Assembly: GCA_951406725.2 (NCBI GenBank)
Contig: OX597822.1
Location: 112,096,001 to 112,160,000, forward strand
DNA: 64,000 bases
Direction: 5' to 3'
Origin: Octopus vulgaris
Lineage: Eukaryota
A program made the position numbers and the translations under genes. Shown here piece by piece: positions 1,084 to 61,409 of this stretch. Each line of letters starts with the position of its first letter. Position 1 is the stretch's first letter. Under the pieces are notes generated by a model, which saw nothing but the letters and a program-made list of their open reading frames with translations, searched no databases and was not told the origin of the DNA.

Positions 1084-2812
1084 CTAGTCTTGCCGGGTCT
1101 TCTCACGCACAGCATACTTCCATAGGTCTCGGTCTCTAGTCATTTCCATGGTGAGACCTAACGTCCGAAGGTCATGCTTCACCACCTCGTCCCAGGTTTT
1201 CCTGGGTCTACCTCTTCCACGGGTTCCCTCAACTGCTAGGGATTGGCACTTTCTCACACACCTCTCTTCATCCATTCTCGCCACATGACCATACCAGCGC
1301 AATCGTCTCTCTTGCACACAACAACTGATGCTTCTTAGGTACAACATTTCTCTCAAGGTACTAACGCTCTGTCGAGTAAGTACACTGACATTACACATCC
1401 ATCGGAGCATACTGGCTTCGTTCCTCACGAGCTTACGCATGTCCTCAGCAGTCACGGCCCATGTTTCACTGCCATGTAGCATAGCTGTTCGTACACATGC
1501 ATCATACAGTCTGCCTTTTACTCTGAGCGAGAGGCCTTTAGTCACCAGCAGAGGTAAGAGCTCCCTAAACTTTGCCCAGGCTATTCTTATTCTAGCAGTT
1601 ACACTTTCAGCGCACCCACCCCCACTACTGACTTGGTCACCTAGATAGCGGAAACTATCAACTACTTCTAGTTTTTCCCCCGGAAAGTGACAGAAGTTGT
1701 TTTCTGCAGATTTTCGGAGGTCAGTGCTCCAGAGCACCTGCCACATACAAAAACTATCTTCCCAGTTAGCCTACCTTTGACATTGCTGCACCTCTTATGT
1801 GTCCATAGCTTACACTGGGTACATCTTATAGAGTTTCTACCTACACCTTTTCTACAGATCGAGCAGGGCCATCTTCCTGATGATATTTGTGGGTTTTCTA
1901 CCTTTCTACTTATTAGTACTTTGGTTTTAGCTAGGTTGACTCTAAGGCCCCTCGATTCTAAACCCTCCTTCCACACCTGGAACTTCTCCTCCAGTTCTGA
2001 TAGTGACTCAGCGATTAGAGCGAGGTCGTCAGCATAGAGGAGCTCCCAGGGGCAACCTGTCTTGAATTCCTCCGTTATTGCCTGGAGGACTATGATAAAT
2101 AGGAGGGGGCTGAGTACTGAACCCTGGTGGACCCCAACCTCTACTTTGAATTCTTCTGTGTACATGTTGCCAACTCTAACCTTACTTACGGCATCTCTGT
2201 ACATGGCTTGCACAGCCCTCACCAGCCATTCATCTATCCCTAGTTTCCTCATTGACCACCAGATGAGGGATCGGGGGACCCTATCAAAGGCTTTCTCCAT
2301 GTCAACAAAAGCCAGGTACAGGGGCTTATCCTTGGCTAGGTATTTCTCCTGCAGCTGCCTTACCAGGAATATAGCATCAGTGGTGCTTTTCCCTGGGACA
2401 AACCCAAACTGCATCTCATCTAAACTAACTCTCTCTCTAATTAGTTGGGCTAAGACCCTCTCCGTAACCTTCATTACCTGATCCAACAGCTTGATACCTC
2501 TGTAATTATTTGTATCCAGGGCATCACCTTTACCTTTGTAGCAGTTGACTAGTATGCTGCTACACCAGTCATTGGGTATGACTCCTTCGTGTATCACCTG
2601 GTTGACTATACGGGTGACTAGGTTATAGCCGACACTGCCAGATTTTGAGCATCTCTGCAGTAATTCCTGATGGGCCTGGGGCTTTCCCTGTCTTCATGCT
2701 TCTAATTGCCTTAGCTACCACGGAACTATCAACTCGGATAGCTGGTCCCTCTGTTGGGTCAACATTTGGCAGACTCTCTTTATCCCATTCATTTTCTTTA
2801 TTCAGCAACATG
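1084..2812 (-). pseudogene. Frameshifted RTE reverse transcriptase ORF with a PHD-type Cys/His cluster
   Basis: YADD-type RT in ORF 1668-2597. C4HC3 cluster at 1734-1871. No endonuclease domain because the copy is 5' truncated. Confidence 0.88.
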
Positions 2813-5156: not shown

Positions 5157-5787
5157 TCATATGACATCAGGACAGTATTCAGAAGTAATACAACACTTTG
5201 CAAATATCTCCTTTGAGTAAAACTACACGTGGAAGAGAATATGTCCTAAAACTGCATCTGCTCCATCCCATGCAGTTGTAGGTTATACGAAGGCGAGACA
5301 TGCCACCTCCTTAAAGTAAGGGTAGAGGAACATCGTAAAACTGTGACACGAGGGGATGTTGAAAAATCAGGTACAGCCGATCATGTATGGAAAAGCGGAG
5401 CCCCACCTCCCACTGTGTGATGAAGTTTAAATAATGAACAGAGAACACCACTGGAAAAATACGAAAATTAAAAGAGTCTGCACATATTCTAGGACACAGT
5501 AACCCCCTCAGCAGACTTAGTGTAGATATGAATGTAATATGGGAACCAGTATTAAGAAAAAATAAAATGCTAGGTTTATAAGCCCTAAAATTCACTCTGT
5601 AATTGCCCACATGCATATAGCATAGTGGATAAGAGTGCGGGCTACTAACCCTCGGATTCTAAGTTCAGTCCCAGGTAGGGACTTGAAAAATAATATCAGA
5701 AAAATATAACATCAGCAACATACCTTAGGAATGAAACCAGTGTACCCTATTAGTTAAATAAAGGGTTGGGTGTGAAATTCTACCAGA

Positions 5788-5830
5788 ATACCTGATGAAG
5801 GCTGGAGAGTACATCAGCCGAAATGTTGTG
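5788..5830 (+). ncRNA. Minimal hammerhead ribozyme motif in the Penelope pLTR (probably decayed)
   Basis: CTGATGA at 5792-5798, stem II ggctg/cagcc (5800-5804 / 5815-5819), GAAA at 5820-5823. Stem III reads aatgtt where aacgtt is expected, consistent with CpG decay. Confidence 0.65.
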
Positions 5831-6011
5831 ATAACGAACAAGGTGAGGACACCTATCCATTCCTTGTAAATAATGTACATAATTCCTCGTCTCAAAAATA
5901 TAGAATAAGATGTTTTCTGACATCCTAGTTGCATTTAGTGACATTTGGAATTCTTCTTTTGGTGAGACATTGCAAACTGCTGTTGATATTAATTTTATAT
6001 ACATACATATA

Positions 6012-12961: not shown

Positions 12962-13335
12962 CCATGTGGACTGGTTGGTGCTGGTGCCATGTAAAAAGCA
13001 CTGAAATGGGTGTAATTTGGAAGGGCATCCAACCTTAGAAAACCTGTCAAAACAGACGTTAGTGACTGATGCTGCTTCTGGCCTTACCAACCTCTGTCAA
13101 ACTTTTCAACCCATGGAAAACATGTCAGATGATGATATAAAAAGATTTCGTACCTACTCTGATATTGTATTTACAGATTGCTGTAAGGGCTAACTAATTT
13201 GTTTCAATAGTTCTAAGTTTATATTAGCTGTGTAATTGCTTTACTAAGCTTAAAAGTATTTCTTGTCCTTGCTGAATTTACAGGTTGTTTTATAAGGACA
13301 TTTAAAAGTATTAAGACAGAAAGGTAAAAATACTT

Positions 13336-13975
13336 TGTTGTATTTAGGAATGGTCATTTTGCCAGTTTAGCCAATAAAAACACACGCACTATTATATTTG
13401 GTGTTACTTTGCTTCAGCGTTATGTATTTTTTACATTAATCCTAATCTTATATAAACAAAACTAAAAACAATAAAATACACAGATAAATAAACAAAGGGA
13501 AATAAATAACTATACATTAAAAAAAATAATAATAAAAAAAATTATAATAATAAGGTGTAAACATGAACAAAATAAAAATAAACAAAAACAAATTACACGA
13601 ACGTATATAAATAGGAGATACAAATATTACAGGCACTCCCCCACACACTCACAAAACAGATATACATAGAGGTATACGCATGCGCAAATGAAGACATACA
13701 ATAGGAATACAAGATACAAAATGGCTGACCGTTAGTAAGGAGAGACACAAATAAGAAAGAAGAAAGCAAAGGACCACTGATGAGGTCACAGAAGTGTGAC
13801 GAAAGAACTCTGGCCGAAATAAGATTAAGATTAATGTAAAAAGTTAATAAAGCTGAAGCAAAGTAACACCAAATATATAGTGCGCGTGCTTTTATTGGCT
13901 AAACTGGCAAAATGACCATTCCGAAATACAACACATGATTTCACATCAAAAATCTTGCAAAACAAATATATAAAC
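13336..13975 (+). mobile_element. Non-autonomous Penelope-like insertion with inverted partial pLTR, hammerhead and 12-bp TSD
   Basis: Inverted arms 13336-13451 and 13819-13933. Direct repeat gtaaaaatactt at 13324-13335 and 13976-13987. Hammerhead at 13774-13813. Confidence 0.8.
13774..13813 (+). ncRNA. Minimal type I hammerhead ribozyme motif
   Basis: Stem I cca/tgg, CTGATGA at 13777-13783, stem II gtcaca/tgtgac (6 bp, gaag loop), GAAA at 13801-13804, 2-bp stem III, CUC cleavage triplet at 13808-13810. Confidence 0.75.
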
Positions 13976-14446
13976 GTAAAAATACTTATATTAAGTTCCA
14001 CATGAAACTGGTGTAATCAGAAAACATTAAACCATAGCCACTGTGATGGATGCTGGTGTCAGGAGAAAGAATTTCAAGTTAAAAAGATTGATTAAGTCTT
14101 GAATTGGTTGTATTGCAGAGATGATAAGGATAACAAAAAGTCAAGAACCATCTCAAGTTCTTGTCTATATCATTGACATTCACTCTTGAAAAATCAGATT
14201 GTTACCATTAAATTTAAAGGTTGCAGATCAAGTATTTTAATATAACCTATCTTTATCCAACTGCAATTTAAAATTGAGCATTCTACAAATAGATTATGGG
14301 TTAGCATAACTGAAAGTTCTTTTAATATTTTCTTCAGATTGTTAAATGAACTGTTCAGTAAAGAATGGGCTTTTTTTCATAAATTTACATTTCATTGTTG
14401 CTGTTGTAAAAATATGTGGTAAAACAGCATGAATGGTACAGGATAG

Positions 14447-20388: not shown

Positions 20389-21511
20389 CTAAAAATATTC
20401 TATTGGCAACGAAAAACATTCTATAGGCAACTAAAAATATTCTTTAGACAACTAAAAATATTCTATAGGCAACTAAAAATATTCTTTAGACAACTAAAAA
20501 TATTCTATTGGCAACGAAAAACATTCTATAGGCAACTAAAAATATTCTTTAGACAACTAAAAATATTCTATAGGCAACTAAAAATATTCTTTAGACAACT
20601 AAAAATATTCTATTAGCAACGAAAAACATTCTATAGGCAACTAAAAATATTCTTTAGACAACTAAAAATATTCTATAGGCAACTAAAAATATTCTTTAGA
20701 CAACTAAAAATATTCTATTGGCAACTAAAAATATTCTATTGGCAACGAAAAACATTCTATAGGCAACTAAAAATATTCTTTAGACAACTAAAAACATTCT
20801 ATAGGCAACTAAAAATATTCTTTAGACAACTAAAAATATTCTATTGGCAACTAAAAATATTCTATTGGCAACGAAAAACATTCTATAGGCAACTAAAAAT
20901 ATTCTTTAGACAACTAAAAACATTCTATAGGCAACTAAAAATATTCTTTAGACAACTAAAAATATTCTATTGGCAACTAAAAATATTCTATTGGCAACGA
21001 AAAACATTCTATAGGCAACTAAAAATATTCTTTAGACAACTAAAAATATTCTATTGGCAACGAAAAACATTCTATAGGCAACTAAAAACATTCTTTAGAC
21101 AACTAAAAATATTCTATTGGCAACGAAAAACATTCTATAGGCAACTAAAAACATTCTTTAGACAACTAAAAATATTCTATTGGCAACGAAAAACATTCTT
21201 TAGGCAACTAAAAATATTCTTTAGACAACTAAAAATATTCTATTGGCAACGAAAAACATTCTATAGGCAACTAAAAACATTCTTTAGACAACTAAAAATA
21301 TTCTATTGTCAACGAAAAACATTCTATAGGCAACTAAAAACATTCTTTAGACAACTAAAAATATTCTATTGGCAACGAAAAACATTCTATAGTCAACTAA
21401 AAATATTCTTTACACAACTAAAAATATTCTATTGGCAACGATAAACATTCTATAGGCAACTAAAAATATTCTTTAGACAGCTAAAAATATTCTATTGGCA
21501 ACGAAAAACAT
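20389..21511 (+). repeat. 21-bp satellite, outlier block (~53 monomers), inverted relative to the main array
   Basis: Monomers aaaaatattctattggcaacg / aaaaacattctataggcaact / aaaaatattctttagacaact. Confidence 0.97.
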
Positions 21512-25149: not shown

Positions 25150-25429
25150 CACAGCACAAAAAGGTAAACACAAAACAAAATTTACTGATTAAAAAAGGAA
25201 CTTCAATACTCTCCAGGTATCATATCTGCTCTCTGCACACAGCCCATCCCAATAACAGCCAAACTCCCTTCCAATCACATTCCCATTATCAAAGCATGTG
25301 CATTAACAAAGAAAACAAATTTCTGCAAAGCCAGGTGAAAATACCTGCACGAAAATACAGAATTACTGCCATAAATGCTGCAAGATGACATTGATGTGTA
25401 GTTCTTAGTGTGTAGCACTAATGTCCTCT

Positions 25430-25526
25430 GTTTCGGCAATACATATAGTAAAATTGGAACGATACAGAAAAGATTAGCATGGCCCCTGCACAAAGATGAC
25501 ACGCAAACTCATGAAGCGTTCCATAT
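25430..25526 (+). pseudogene. RNU6: U6 snRNA retropseudogene
   Basis: gtttcggcaatacatatagtaaaattggaacgatacagaaaagattagcatggcccctgcacaaagatgacacgcaaactcatgaagcgttccatat aligns to U6. The ACAGAGA box is mutated to ACAGAAA, the terminal U-tract is replaced by an A-run, and the first ~6 nt are missing. Confidence 0.92.
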
Positions 25527-25545
25527 AAAAAAAAAGGAAAAAGAA

Positions 25546-58503: not shown

Positions 58504-59095
58504 CACTGAGGTTGTTTTGATCGGGCTTAAAAAAAATTCTGGGTTCAATACAGTTGTCTAAAGATTCTTCAAGATAATGCCCCAACATCCCTGCAGTCTA
58601 ATAACTGCAATAAGTAAAAAGGGAAAAACAATTCTGGGAGTTCAACAAAATATTCTTCAAAGCAATACTCTAGCATGGCCACAGTTTGATGACTGAAACA
58701 AGTAAACAGGGGAAAAAAACCTAAAAATATAACTGAAGTGGTTTTGTCCACTTTCACACTTTAACTATGGGGGTTGTCCTGGGGGTGGAGGTCCTAGTGG
58801 GGGTTTTGTCATACACTCAAACAGAGCTTACAGAGAGAGCCTCTACAAGGTCATTCAACCTATCAGAAACAGCAGCAAAATCTCTCTCTCAAGTCACACA
58901 GTAGTTATTTGTTTCCTGTTTACTTTGATAACAACACACTTCATATTTAAAGTGACATAAATAAACAACACATTATATGACATAGTTCTAAATACATCCA
59001 AAAGGACAGAATGGTCACAGCTGTGACTGACCGATCAGACTCGATGGGAAGTTAAAAATAAATAAATAAAAATCCAGTATGTTCTAATTTTATTC

Positions 59096-61409
59096 AATCC
59101 ACTTATAATTAAAGGCCTTCCAACCTTGACCATCGCATCTTTTCTATATCCAAAAACTTCTTATCTTCTGTAATTTTCTTTTCCATTTTATTTTATAAAA
59201 ATGTAAAAATTACAATGTCACTGAAAATATAAAATTTGCCAATCCAAATATAATTAAAGGCCTTCCAACCTTGACCATCTCATCTTTTCTATATCCAAAA
59301 ACTTCTTATCTTCTGTAATTTTCTTTTCCATTTTATTTTATAAAAATGTAAAAATTACAATGTCACTAAAAATATAAAATTTGCCAATCCACTTATAAAG
59401 GCCTTCCAACCTTGACCATCTCATCTTTTCTATATCCCAAAATCTTCTTATCTTCTGTAATTTTCTTTTCCATTTTATTTTATAAAAATGTAAAAACTTA
59501 CAATGTCACTGAAAATATAAAATTTGCCAATCCACTTATAATTAAAGGCCTTCCAACCTTGACCATCTCATCTTTTCTATATCCCAAAACTTCTTATCTT
59601 CTGTAATTTTCTTTTCCATTTTATTTTATAAAAATGTAAAAATTACAATGTCACTGAAAATATAAAATTTGCCAATCCACTTATAATTAAAGGCCTTCCA
59701 ACCTTGACCATCTCATCTTTTCTATATCCAAAATCTTCTTATCTTCTGTAATTTTCTTTTCCATTTTATTTTATAAAAATGTAAAAATTACAATGTCACT
59801 GAAAATATAAAATTTGCCAATCCACTTATAATTAAAGGCCTTCCAACCTTGACCATCTCATCTTTTCTATATCCAAAAACTTGTTATCTTCTGTAATTTT
59901 CTTTTCCATTTTATTTTATAAAAATGTAAAAATTACAATGTCACTGAAAATATAAAATTTGCCAATCCACTTATAATTAAAGGCCTTCCAACCTTGACCA
60001 TCTCATCTTTTCTATATCCCAAAACTTCTTATCTTCTGTAATTTTCTTTTCCATTTTATTTTATAAAAATGTAAAACTTACAATGTCACTGAAAATATAA
60101 AATTTGCCAATCCACTTATAATTAAAGGCCTTCCAACCTTGACCATCTCATCTTTTCTATATCCCAAAACTTCTTATCTTCTGTAATTTTCTTTTCCATT
60201 TTATTTTATAAAAATGTAAAACTTACAATGTCACTGAAAATATAAAATTTGCCAATCCACTTATAATTAAAGGCCTTCCAACCTTGACCATCGCATCTTT
60301 TCTATATCCAAAAACTTCTTATCTTCTGTAATTTTCTTTTCCATTTTATTTTATAAAAATGTAAAAATTACAATGTCACTGAAAATATAAAATTTGCCAA
60401 TCCACTTATAATTAAAGGCCTTCCAACCTTGACCATCTCATCTTTTCTATATCCCAAAACTTCTTATCTTCTGTAATTTTCTTTTCCATTTTATTTTATA
60501 AAAATGTAAAAATTACAATGTCACTGAAAATATAAAATTTGCCAATCCACTTATAATTAAAGGCCTTCCAACCTTGACCATCTCATCTTTTCTATATCCC
60601 AAAACTTCTTATCTTCTGTAATTTTCTTTTCCATTTTATTTTATAAAAATGTAAAAATTACAATGTCACTGAAAATATAAAATTTGCCAATCCACTTATA
60701 ATTAAAGGCCTTCCAACCTTGACCATCTCATCTTTTCTATATCCCAAAACTTTTTATCTTCTGTAATTTTCTTTTCCATTTTATTTTATAAAAATGTAAA
60801 AATTACAATGTCACTGAAAATATAAAATTTGCCAATCCACTATAATTAAGGCCTTCCAACCTTGACCATCTCATCTTTTCTATATCCAAAAACTTCTTAT
60901 CTTCTGTAATTTTCTTTTCCATTTTATTTTATAAAAATGTAAAAATTACAATGTCACTGAAAATATAAAATTTGCCAATCCACTTATAATTAAAGGCCTT
61001 CCAACCTTGACCATCTCATCTTTTCTATATCCAAAATCTTCTTATCTTCTGTAATTTTCTTTTCCATTTTATTTTATAAAATGTAAAAATTACAATGTCA
61101 CTGAAAATATAAAATTTGCCAATCCACTTATAATTAAAGGCCTTCCAACCTTGACCATCTCATCTTTTCTATATCCAAAAACTTCTTATCTTCTGTAATT
61201 TTCTTTTCCATTTTATTTTATAAAAATGTAAAAATTACAATGTCACTGAAAATATAAAATTTGCCAATCCACTTATAATTAAAGGCCTTCCAACCTTGAC
61301 CATCTCATCTTTTCTATATCCCAAAACTTCTTATCTTCTGTAATTTTCTTTTCCATTTTATTTTATAAAAATGTAAAAATTACAATGTCACTGAAAATAT
61401 AAAATTTGC
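59096..61409. repeat. 145-bp tandem repeat, 16 copies
   Basis: Unit starts (aatccacttata) at 59096, 59241, 59386, 59529, 59674, 59819, 59964, 60109, 60254, 60399, 60544, 60689, 60834, 60977, 61121 and 61266. Copies differ at only a few positions. Confidence 0.98.

What the first reader, a model, noticed from the sequence alone, without database searches (positions are those of the whole stretch)
13324..13987. Complete non-coding ribozyme-bearing foldback element with a perfect TSD
Seen: a 640-bp insert between perfect 12-bp direct repeats, with no long ORF and ~115-bp inverted arms. A well-formed minimal hammerhead has its CUC cleavage site (13810) 8 nt before the start of the right arm. So the inverted copy covers only sequence downstream of the predicted cut. 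Established: Penelope-like elements carry hammerheads in pLTRs and often insert with inverted partial pLTRs, and non-autonomous retrozymes exist. Inference: a snapshot of a self-cleaving non-autonomous retro-RNA in which the cleavage site defined the end of the second cDNA.
Basis: partly seen in the sequence, partly recalled or inferred. Interest (0 to 1): 0.7.

Follow-up and report, generated by a model that had tools for sequence, protein, structure and literature searches.

The report
Fold-back stub of Penelope-like retrotransposon
This 640-base insert is a cut-short, mirror-ended copy of a very common protein-coding jumping gene (a Penelope-like retrotransposon) that carries a predicted self-cutting RNA motif; the layout is the ordinary one for such elements, and its mirrored arm stops 8 bases short of the predicted cut, so the ribozyme likely did not set its end.

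Summary
The anatomy is real: a 12-bp target duplication, 117-bp inverted arms, and a minimal type I hammerhead with its predicted cut after 13810. It is not a separate non-coding element. Other copies run 5' into a GIY-YIG/RT reading frame, and nine intact 1,307-1,309-aa parents (99.2-99.97% alike) were found. The insert is the last ~525 bp of that Penelope-like element (Nematis-type linker), broken ~30 nt after the stop codon, plus an inverted partial copy. Thousands of copies exist. In 75 of 79 fold-back insertions one arm ends at +25 and the other at +79-81 of the ORF, as here; this fits two target-primed cDNAs joined by microhomology (inferred). Breakpoints are scattered: 91 of 158 arms read through the ribozyme. 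This arm ends at -93, not at the cut (-101). Genome-wide there is a small excess of ends exactly at the cut (17 vs 29 at five control positions; ~2% of arms), which microhomology may explain. The youngest intact copies carry a non-canonical ribozyme core. The scan reported similar Penelope stubs elsewhere in this genome. Verdict: new member of a known kind, low interest.

The parts
13324..13335 (.). Left target-site duplication (12 bp)
   Evidence: family duplications of similar length in 14 of 18 non-microsatellite pairs
13335..13451 (-). Inverted, 5'-truncated pLTR copy: -93 to about +23/+25 relative to the ORF ATG; ends at the family's short 3' end
   Evidence: 97% identical to L014
13450..13451 (.). 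2-nt microhomology (AT) at the head-to-head junction
13452..13977 (+). 5'-truncated main copy: 3' UTR starting ~30 nt after the ORF stop codon, pLTR, and tail (long 3' end, about +79)
   Evidence: 85% identical to intact parent L156, 86-88% to older-subfamily copies
13771..13815 (+). Minimal type I hammerhead motif; predicted cut after 13810 (first base after the cut is -101)
   Evidence: activity not tested
13874..13896 (+). TATA-like box (13874) and the family's strongest 5'-end hot spot (-25 to -16); candidate internal promoter start (inferred)
13912..13977 (+). Start of the element's ORF carried in the pLTR and tail, with a 15-bp deletion in this copy
13976..13987 (.). Right target-site duplication (12 bp)

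Best explanation
The insert is a 5'-truncated, fold-back copy of the 3' end of a high-copy autonomous Penelope-like retrotransposon, likely made when the element's RT-endonuclease cut both target strands about 12 bp apart and primed two cDNAs that were then joined head to head. Shown: identity with the parent's 3' UTR, pLTR and tail; intact 1,309-aa RT + CX4CX2C linker + GIY-YIG parents; two fixed 3' ends (+25 and +79-81); one of each in 75 of 79 fold-backs; variable 5' breakpoints with short microhomologies; short TSDs and (AT)n targeting. Inferred: the two ends are two internal RT start sites, one used on each target strand, and the unfinished cDNAs were joined by microhomology. The hammerhead is a passenger in the pLTR that did not set this copy's breakpoint.
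For: Copies extend 5' of 13452 into GIY-YIG and RT coding sequence. Nine loci picked for long frames hold 1,310-1,312-residue stop-to-stop frames flanked by this repeat, 99.2-99.97% alike. Motifs are at residues 611 DKSG, 761, 894, 932 YVDD, 1183 CX4CX2C, 1222 YVGET. Exact 27-mer counts at the 3' end are 1,676 and 3,123. Of 79 distinct inverted pairs, 72 were called short+long by script and three more by hand (L001, L002, L160); 2 are short+short and 2 ambiguous. Junction overlap of 1 nt or more occurs in 55 of 79. 55 of 73 scored pairs are microsatellite-flanked; 14 of the other 18 show a duplication scoring 10 or more, against 1.3% of 306 mismatched controls. 3,823 exact 30-mers read through the cut site. 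All 20 hammerheads in the nine intact-ORF loci have CUGAUGC and CUU in place of CUGAUGA and CUC. Literature agrees: inverted pLTR, tail at one end, 8-10-bp TSD, ORF start within the pLTR (PMC3846280 passages; PMC8557442 passages); both strands cut and extended, two internal RT starts, ribozyme mutants still insert (PMC11167929).
Against: The two-primer mechanism is inferred from end statistics; nothing was assayed. PMC3846280 offers self-priming on an antisense template for head-to-head structures, and 10 of 79 pairs have near-symmetric breakpoints (4.7 expected, p=0.014), which fits that or palindromic annealing. Ends at the exact cut are enriched genome-wide, so ribozyme-cut templates may contribute to some copies. 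Pfam gave no hit for the full parent and only sub-threshold RVT_1 and GIY-YIG hits for fragments. No empty site was seen. The window copy belongs to an older subfamily; no intact ORF of that exact subfamily was found.
Confidence: 0.9

Rival explanations
1. The arm was copied from a ribozyme-cleaved RNA, and 8 nt were lost before joining.
For: True 5' ends genome-wide: 17 at -101 and 14 at -102, against 1, 10, 1, 4 and 13 at -107, -104, -100, -99 and -93 (weighted 65 and 36 against 3-32; binomial p about 6e-5). The arm stops just 3' of the motif, and this older subfamily has a canonical core.
Against: This arm ends at -93, a background-level position. Only 3 of 151 at-risk arms ended in -96..-105, against 31 of 204 in -16..-25 and 12 of 113 in -196..-205. 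The main copy of the same insertion reads through an uncut ribozyme. 7 of the 17 ends at -101 share one TGG microhomology junction, and 6 of the 10 that could be typed are young-type copies, whose intact members carry the altered core.
Confidence: 0.07
2. It is a member of a non-autonomous retrozyme family that spreads as its own unit through a circular or tandem RNA.
For: A 326-nt tandem unit made of this pLTR plus a 112-nt spacer, with a hammerhead in most units, exists at three loci on C30, so the family does spawn retrozyme-like derivatives.
Against: The window insert has one hammerhead, no tandem unit and no spacer. None of the other 78 distinct pairs has both its breakpoints. Its 5' end falls inside the parent's 3' UTR. 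No back-joint was listed in four RNA-like contig sets (a weak test).
Confidence: 0.02
3. It is a fold-back DNA transposon or MITE with terminal inverted repeats.
For: Inverted arms and a perfect TSD.
Against: Arm lengths vary freely, the two outer ends differ by a ~55-nt tail, and the parent encodes RT and GIY-YIG.
Confidence: 0.01

Closest known systems
Endonuclease-bearing Penelope-like elements, Nematis-type (CX2-5CxxC linker, short spacer) as defined in PMC8557442
   Same: RT followed by C-terminal GIY-YIG; CX4CX2C linker with a 7-aa spacer before the next Cys, like Nematis_C4/Pp/Cr and unlike the ~20-25-aa spacer of Neptune (Fig. S2 alignment, compared by eye); two Cys inside GIY-YIG; 5' truncation, partial tandems, inverted copy, tail at one end, (TA)n targeting.
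   Different: Longer ORF (1,309 aa) with an Asn-rich block (33% N over residues 245-510); DKS in place of DKG; tail of ~55 nt rather than 30-40. No tree was built, so the clade is provisional.
Pen2a_Av and relatives of Adineta vaga (PMC3846280)
   Same: Inverted 5' pLTR, optional tail at one end, 8-10-bp TSD, ORF start inside the pLTR, TATA box near an initiator, Asn-rich inserts.
   Different: Few copies in the rotifer, thousands here; the Asn-rich block lies upstream of the RT here.
PAc (Poseidon of Anolis carolinensis; PMC11167929)
   Same: Two fixed 3' ends inside the ORF start that define a tail; AT-rich targets; hammerhead in the pLTR region that is not needed for insertion in vitro.
   Different: In PAc the cut is 26 nt after the start codon; here it is 101 nt before. 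Penelope/Poseidon elements lack the linker Zn-finger (PMC8557442).
Metazoan minimal hammerheads of PLEs (PMC4209133) and non-LTR retrozymes (10.64898/2026.07.22.740005)
   Same: Type I motif with a longer helix II, an unpaired base before G10.1, short helices I and III; that paper already notes dual motifs 100-700 bp apart on opposite strands.
   Different: Not a tandem array, so not a retrozyme by that preprint's definition; the stem III sequence AGAACU is only partly self-complementary.

Membership tests
EN+ Penelope-like element | Single ORF with PLE-type RT and C-terminal GIY-YIG endonuclease in the parent | tested here: met
   (motifs); Pfam hits weak and on fragments only
EN+ Penelope-like element | pLTRs or partial tandems that include the ORF start | tested here: met
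EN+ Penelope-like element | 5'-truncated copies with an adjacent inverted copy and a tail at one end | tested here: met
   75 of 79 pairs
EN+ Penelope-like element | Short variable TSD, AT-rich or microsatellite targets | tested here: met
EN+ Penelope-like element | Hammerhead motif in the pLTR | tested here: met
   (descriptor match; no Rfam hit)
Nematis clade | CX2-5CxxC linker with short spacer plus CCHH motif | tested here: met
   comparison by eye
Nematis clade | RT phylogeny groups with named Nematis elements | not tested
   no named reference sequences were available as tool inputs
Non-LTR retrozyme | Tandem repeat units, each with a type I hammerhead | tested here: not met
   one motif, no tandem unit in the insert
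Non-LTR retrozyme | Independent non-coding family with its own fixed boundaries | tested here: not met
   continuous with the coding parent; breakpoints unique
Non-LTR retrozyme | Circular RNA form | tested here: inconclusive
   no back-joint listed in 4 contig sets whose RNA status is a guess
Active hammerhead ribozyme | Self-cleavage as monomer or dimer | not testable with these tools
   needs an in vitro assay; the cofold gave only a weak intermolecular helix
MITE / fold-back DNA transposon | Fixed terminal inverted repeats and fixed TSD length | tested here: not met

The most novel reading that the evidence does not exclude
This family preserves a genomic footprint of in vivo hammerhead cleavage: about 2% of cDNA arms stop exactly at the scissile bond, on top of a near-invariant rule that the two target strands are primed from different RT start sites (+25 on one, +80 on the other). 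That would be in vivo evidence for ribozyme-cut templates and for asymmetric twin priming in Penelope-like elements.
Probability: 0.3. Interest if true: 0.5.

Novelty: new member of a known kind. Interest (0 to 1): 0.24.

Why it matters
The single insert is ordinary. The family is useful: it is young, has near-identical intact parents and thousands of fold-back insertions, so it can test two open points of Penelope-like transposition. One is whether the two RT start sites seen in vitro are used one per target strand. The other is whether hammerhead cleavage ever shapes the template in vivo. The altered core in the youngest intact copies suggests that canonical cleavage is dispensable.

Tried and rejected
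Rfam found no hammerhead at gathering or E 10 thresholds. A GIY-YIG family search returned 148 places; its 20 fetched loci had no match to the insert. Pfam found nothing on the full parent. ARAGORN found no tRNA in L156, L040 or L001, so the tRNA-headed reading that the scan gave other Penelope families was not adopted. Empty site: three contig sets from three studies run from both flanks into the element and no skipping joint was among the 15 shown (60 more not shown); the raw-read run laid nothing, so it was no test. Circular junctions: three joints listed in four RNA-like contig sets, none a back-joint; contigs show presence, not absence. In one search, 9 of 15 listed joints fell at 13802-13821; I set this aside because joints further right can map onto the left arm. 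A paper search for twin priming with Penelope gave one unrelated review. A look-up of earlier scan notes by sequence returned nothing. No tree, structure prediction or covariance model was run.

Full report
Observation. The sequence shows an exact 12-bp direct repeat at 13324-13335 and 13976-13987 and inverted arms at 13335-13451 and 13819-13933, about 91% complementary. The longest ATG frame inside is 34 aa. A minimal type I hammerhead lies at 13771-13815 with the predicted cut after 13810. Rfam misses it and its fold z-score is -1.5. A descriptor of my own found it and found 0 hits in 20,000 shuffled 640-mers. Its layout matches the minimal PLE hammerheads of PMC4209133 (parts 1-2 of 4 read).

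What it belongs to. The insert is highly repeated: 2,941 candidates in the first look, 424 exact copies of the canonical-core 34-mer, and 1,676 plus 3,123 exact copies of two variants of a 27-mer at the 3' end. Copies chosen by the insert's 5' part run upstream into GIY-YIG and RT coding sequence; 18 of 30 share such upstream sequence. The window copy breaks about 30 nt after the stop codon. A protein search showed many long frames. I fetched ten stretches chosen for long frames; nine distinct loci hold 1,310-1,312-residue stop-to-stop frames bordered by this repeat and are 99.2-99.97% alike. [quoted passage not shown] Pfam support is weak. A 99%-identical protein is labelled Octopus vulgaris. 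The window body is 85% identical to the parent's 3' UTR and pLTR, and the last 66 bases are the ORF's own start with a 15-bp deletion. The short spacer after the linker cysteines resembles Nematis rather than Neptune in Fig. S2 of PMC8557442 (passages and supplement parts). This is by eye, with no tree.

How copies are built. Positions are relative to the ORF's ATG (window 13912); the first base after the predicted cut is -101. Among 237 distinct arms from loci sampled in genome order by three anchors (all 100 places of the first list were held but two sat in loci outside this tally, about 87 of 100 of the second, 30 of 100 of the third), 3' ends cluster at +21-25 and +75-84. Among 79 distinct head-to-head pairs from all loci held at that point, 72 were called one short plus one long end. 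L001, L002 and L160 are the same on inspection, giving 75; two are short+short and two ambiguous. The window insert follows the rule. Junctions overlap by at least 1 nt in 55 of 79, are blunt in 4 and have extra bases in 20. Of 73 pairs with scorable flanks, 55 sit in microsatellites; 14 of the other 18 show a duplication scoring 10 or more, against 1.3% of 306 mismatched controls. The 'perfect TSD' is therefore typical. The same layout is described for rotifer elements (PMC3846280, passages) and for PLEs in general (PMC8557442). PMC11167929 (parts 1-2 of 4) shows in vitro that an anole element cuts and extends both strands, starts RT at two internal sites that define the tail, and inserts without an active ribozyme.

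Does the ribozyme set the breakpoint? Mostly not. Of 158 arms in pairs, 91 read through the motif, 59 end 3' of -90 and 8 end in -105..-90. In the sampled arms 3 of 151 at risk ended in -96..-105, against 31 of 204 in -16..-25, 9 of 160 in -86..-95 and 12 of 113 in -196..-205. Genome-wide, 3,823 exact 30-mers cross the cut. I then counted copies that begin at a set position, using patterns with three non-matching leading letters, and inspected all 73 hits. True ends were 17 of 18 at -101, 14 of 21 at -102, 10 of 10 at -104, 1 of 1 at -107, 1 of 2 at -100, 4 of 7 at -99 and 13 of 14 at -93. Weighted for the filter these are 65, 36, 25, 3, 4, 15 and 32. So there is an excess at the exact cut (p about 6e-5 against five controls), about 2% of arms. 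This result goes against a pure 'passenger' reading and I report it as such. It has a plain rival. Seven of the 17 share one TGG microhomology junction; setting them aside removed significance in the first, three-control test (p=0.18). T-containing positions are favoured throughout this A-rich element, as the hot spots at -21 and -88 show. All 20 motifs in the nine intact-ORF loci have CUGAUGC and CUU, which by established hammerhead rules (my own knowledge) should impair cleavage, yet 6 of the 10 typable -101 ends are young-type. The window's own arm ends at -93 with a 2-nt microhomology, at a background-level position.

Other checks. The insertion is present in three contig sets from three studies and two species labels; no empty site was shown. 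RNA-like contig sets hold family sequence but listed no circular joint. A 326-nt tandem derivative of this pLTR at three C30 loci looks retrozyme-like (definition from 10.64898/2026.07.22.740005, part 1 of 5 read), but the window insert is not such a unit. Earlier scan notes describe other Penelope stubs in this genome; none matched this sequence. The bioRxiv preprint's supplements were not seen, and Repbase-type libraries were not searchable, so the family may already be named. Four paper searches showed no count of end pairing or of breakpoints against the ribozyme cut; that is a narrow search.

Verdict. An ordinary fold-back stub of an abundant Penelope-like element: a new member of a known kind, interest 0.24. 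The family-level end statistics are the only part worth following.

Noticed in passing
L156-L164 (intact-ORF loci): All 20 hammerheads in the nine near-identical intact loci have CUGAUGC and a CUU site, while older copies keep CUGAUGA and CUC; the recently active lineage may have lost canonical cleavage.
   Followed up: partly
L371:2940-5045, L372:1295-2142, L374:1402-2217 (G000:C30): A 326-nt tandem unit (this pLTR plus a 112-nt spacer) at three loci with different flanks; one array is itself a fold-back with one long and one short end. It looks like a nascent retrozyme-like derivative.
   Followed up: partly
window 13874-13896: The family's strongest 5'-end hot spot (-16 to -25; 31 of 204 arms) lies about 15-20 nt after a TATA-like box; possibly cDNA run-off at the element's transcription start.
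   Followed up: partly
window 5300-5840: A second hammerhead motif at 5792, after what looks like a GIY-YIG remnant and a tRNA-box-like stretch near 5660; probably a stub of another Penelope family like the tRNA-headed one in earlier scan notes.
   Followed up: no
P0003 residues 245-510 (L156): Asn-rich block (33% N) upstream of the RT, recalling the Asn-rich inserts reported for rotifer Penelope elements.
   Followed up: no
L067, L072 and other places: A different GIY-YIG-bearing family with many 781-residue open frames, apparently also young.
   Followed up: no
window 25423-25530: U6 snRNA copy with several substitutions followed by an A-run; likely a processed pseudogene.
   Followed up: no
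window 26349-57543 and 20389-21511: A 31-kb satellite of 21/42/63-bp period, with a 1.1-kb related array in the opposite orientation upstream; a 145-bp array of 16 copies at 59095-61409.
   Followed up: no
window 1084-2693 (-): Frameshifted non-LTR retrotransposon RT remnant in two overlapping frames.
   Followed up: no
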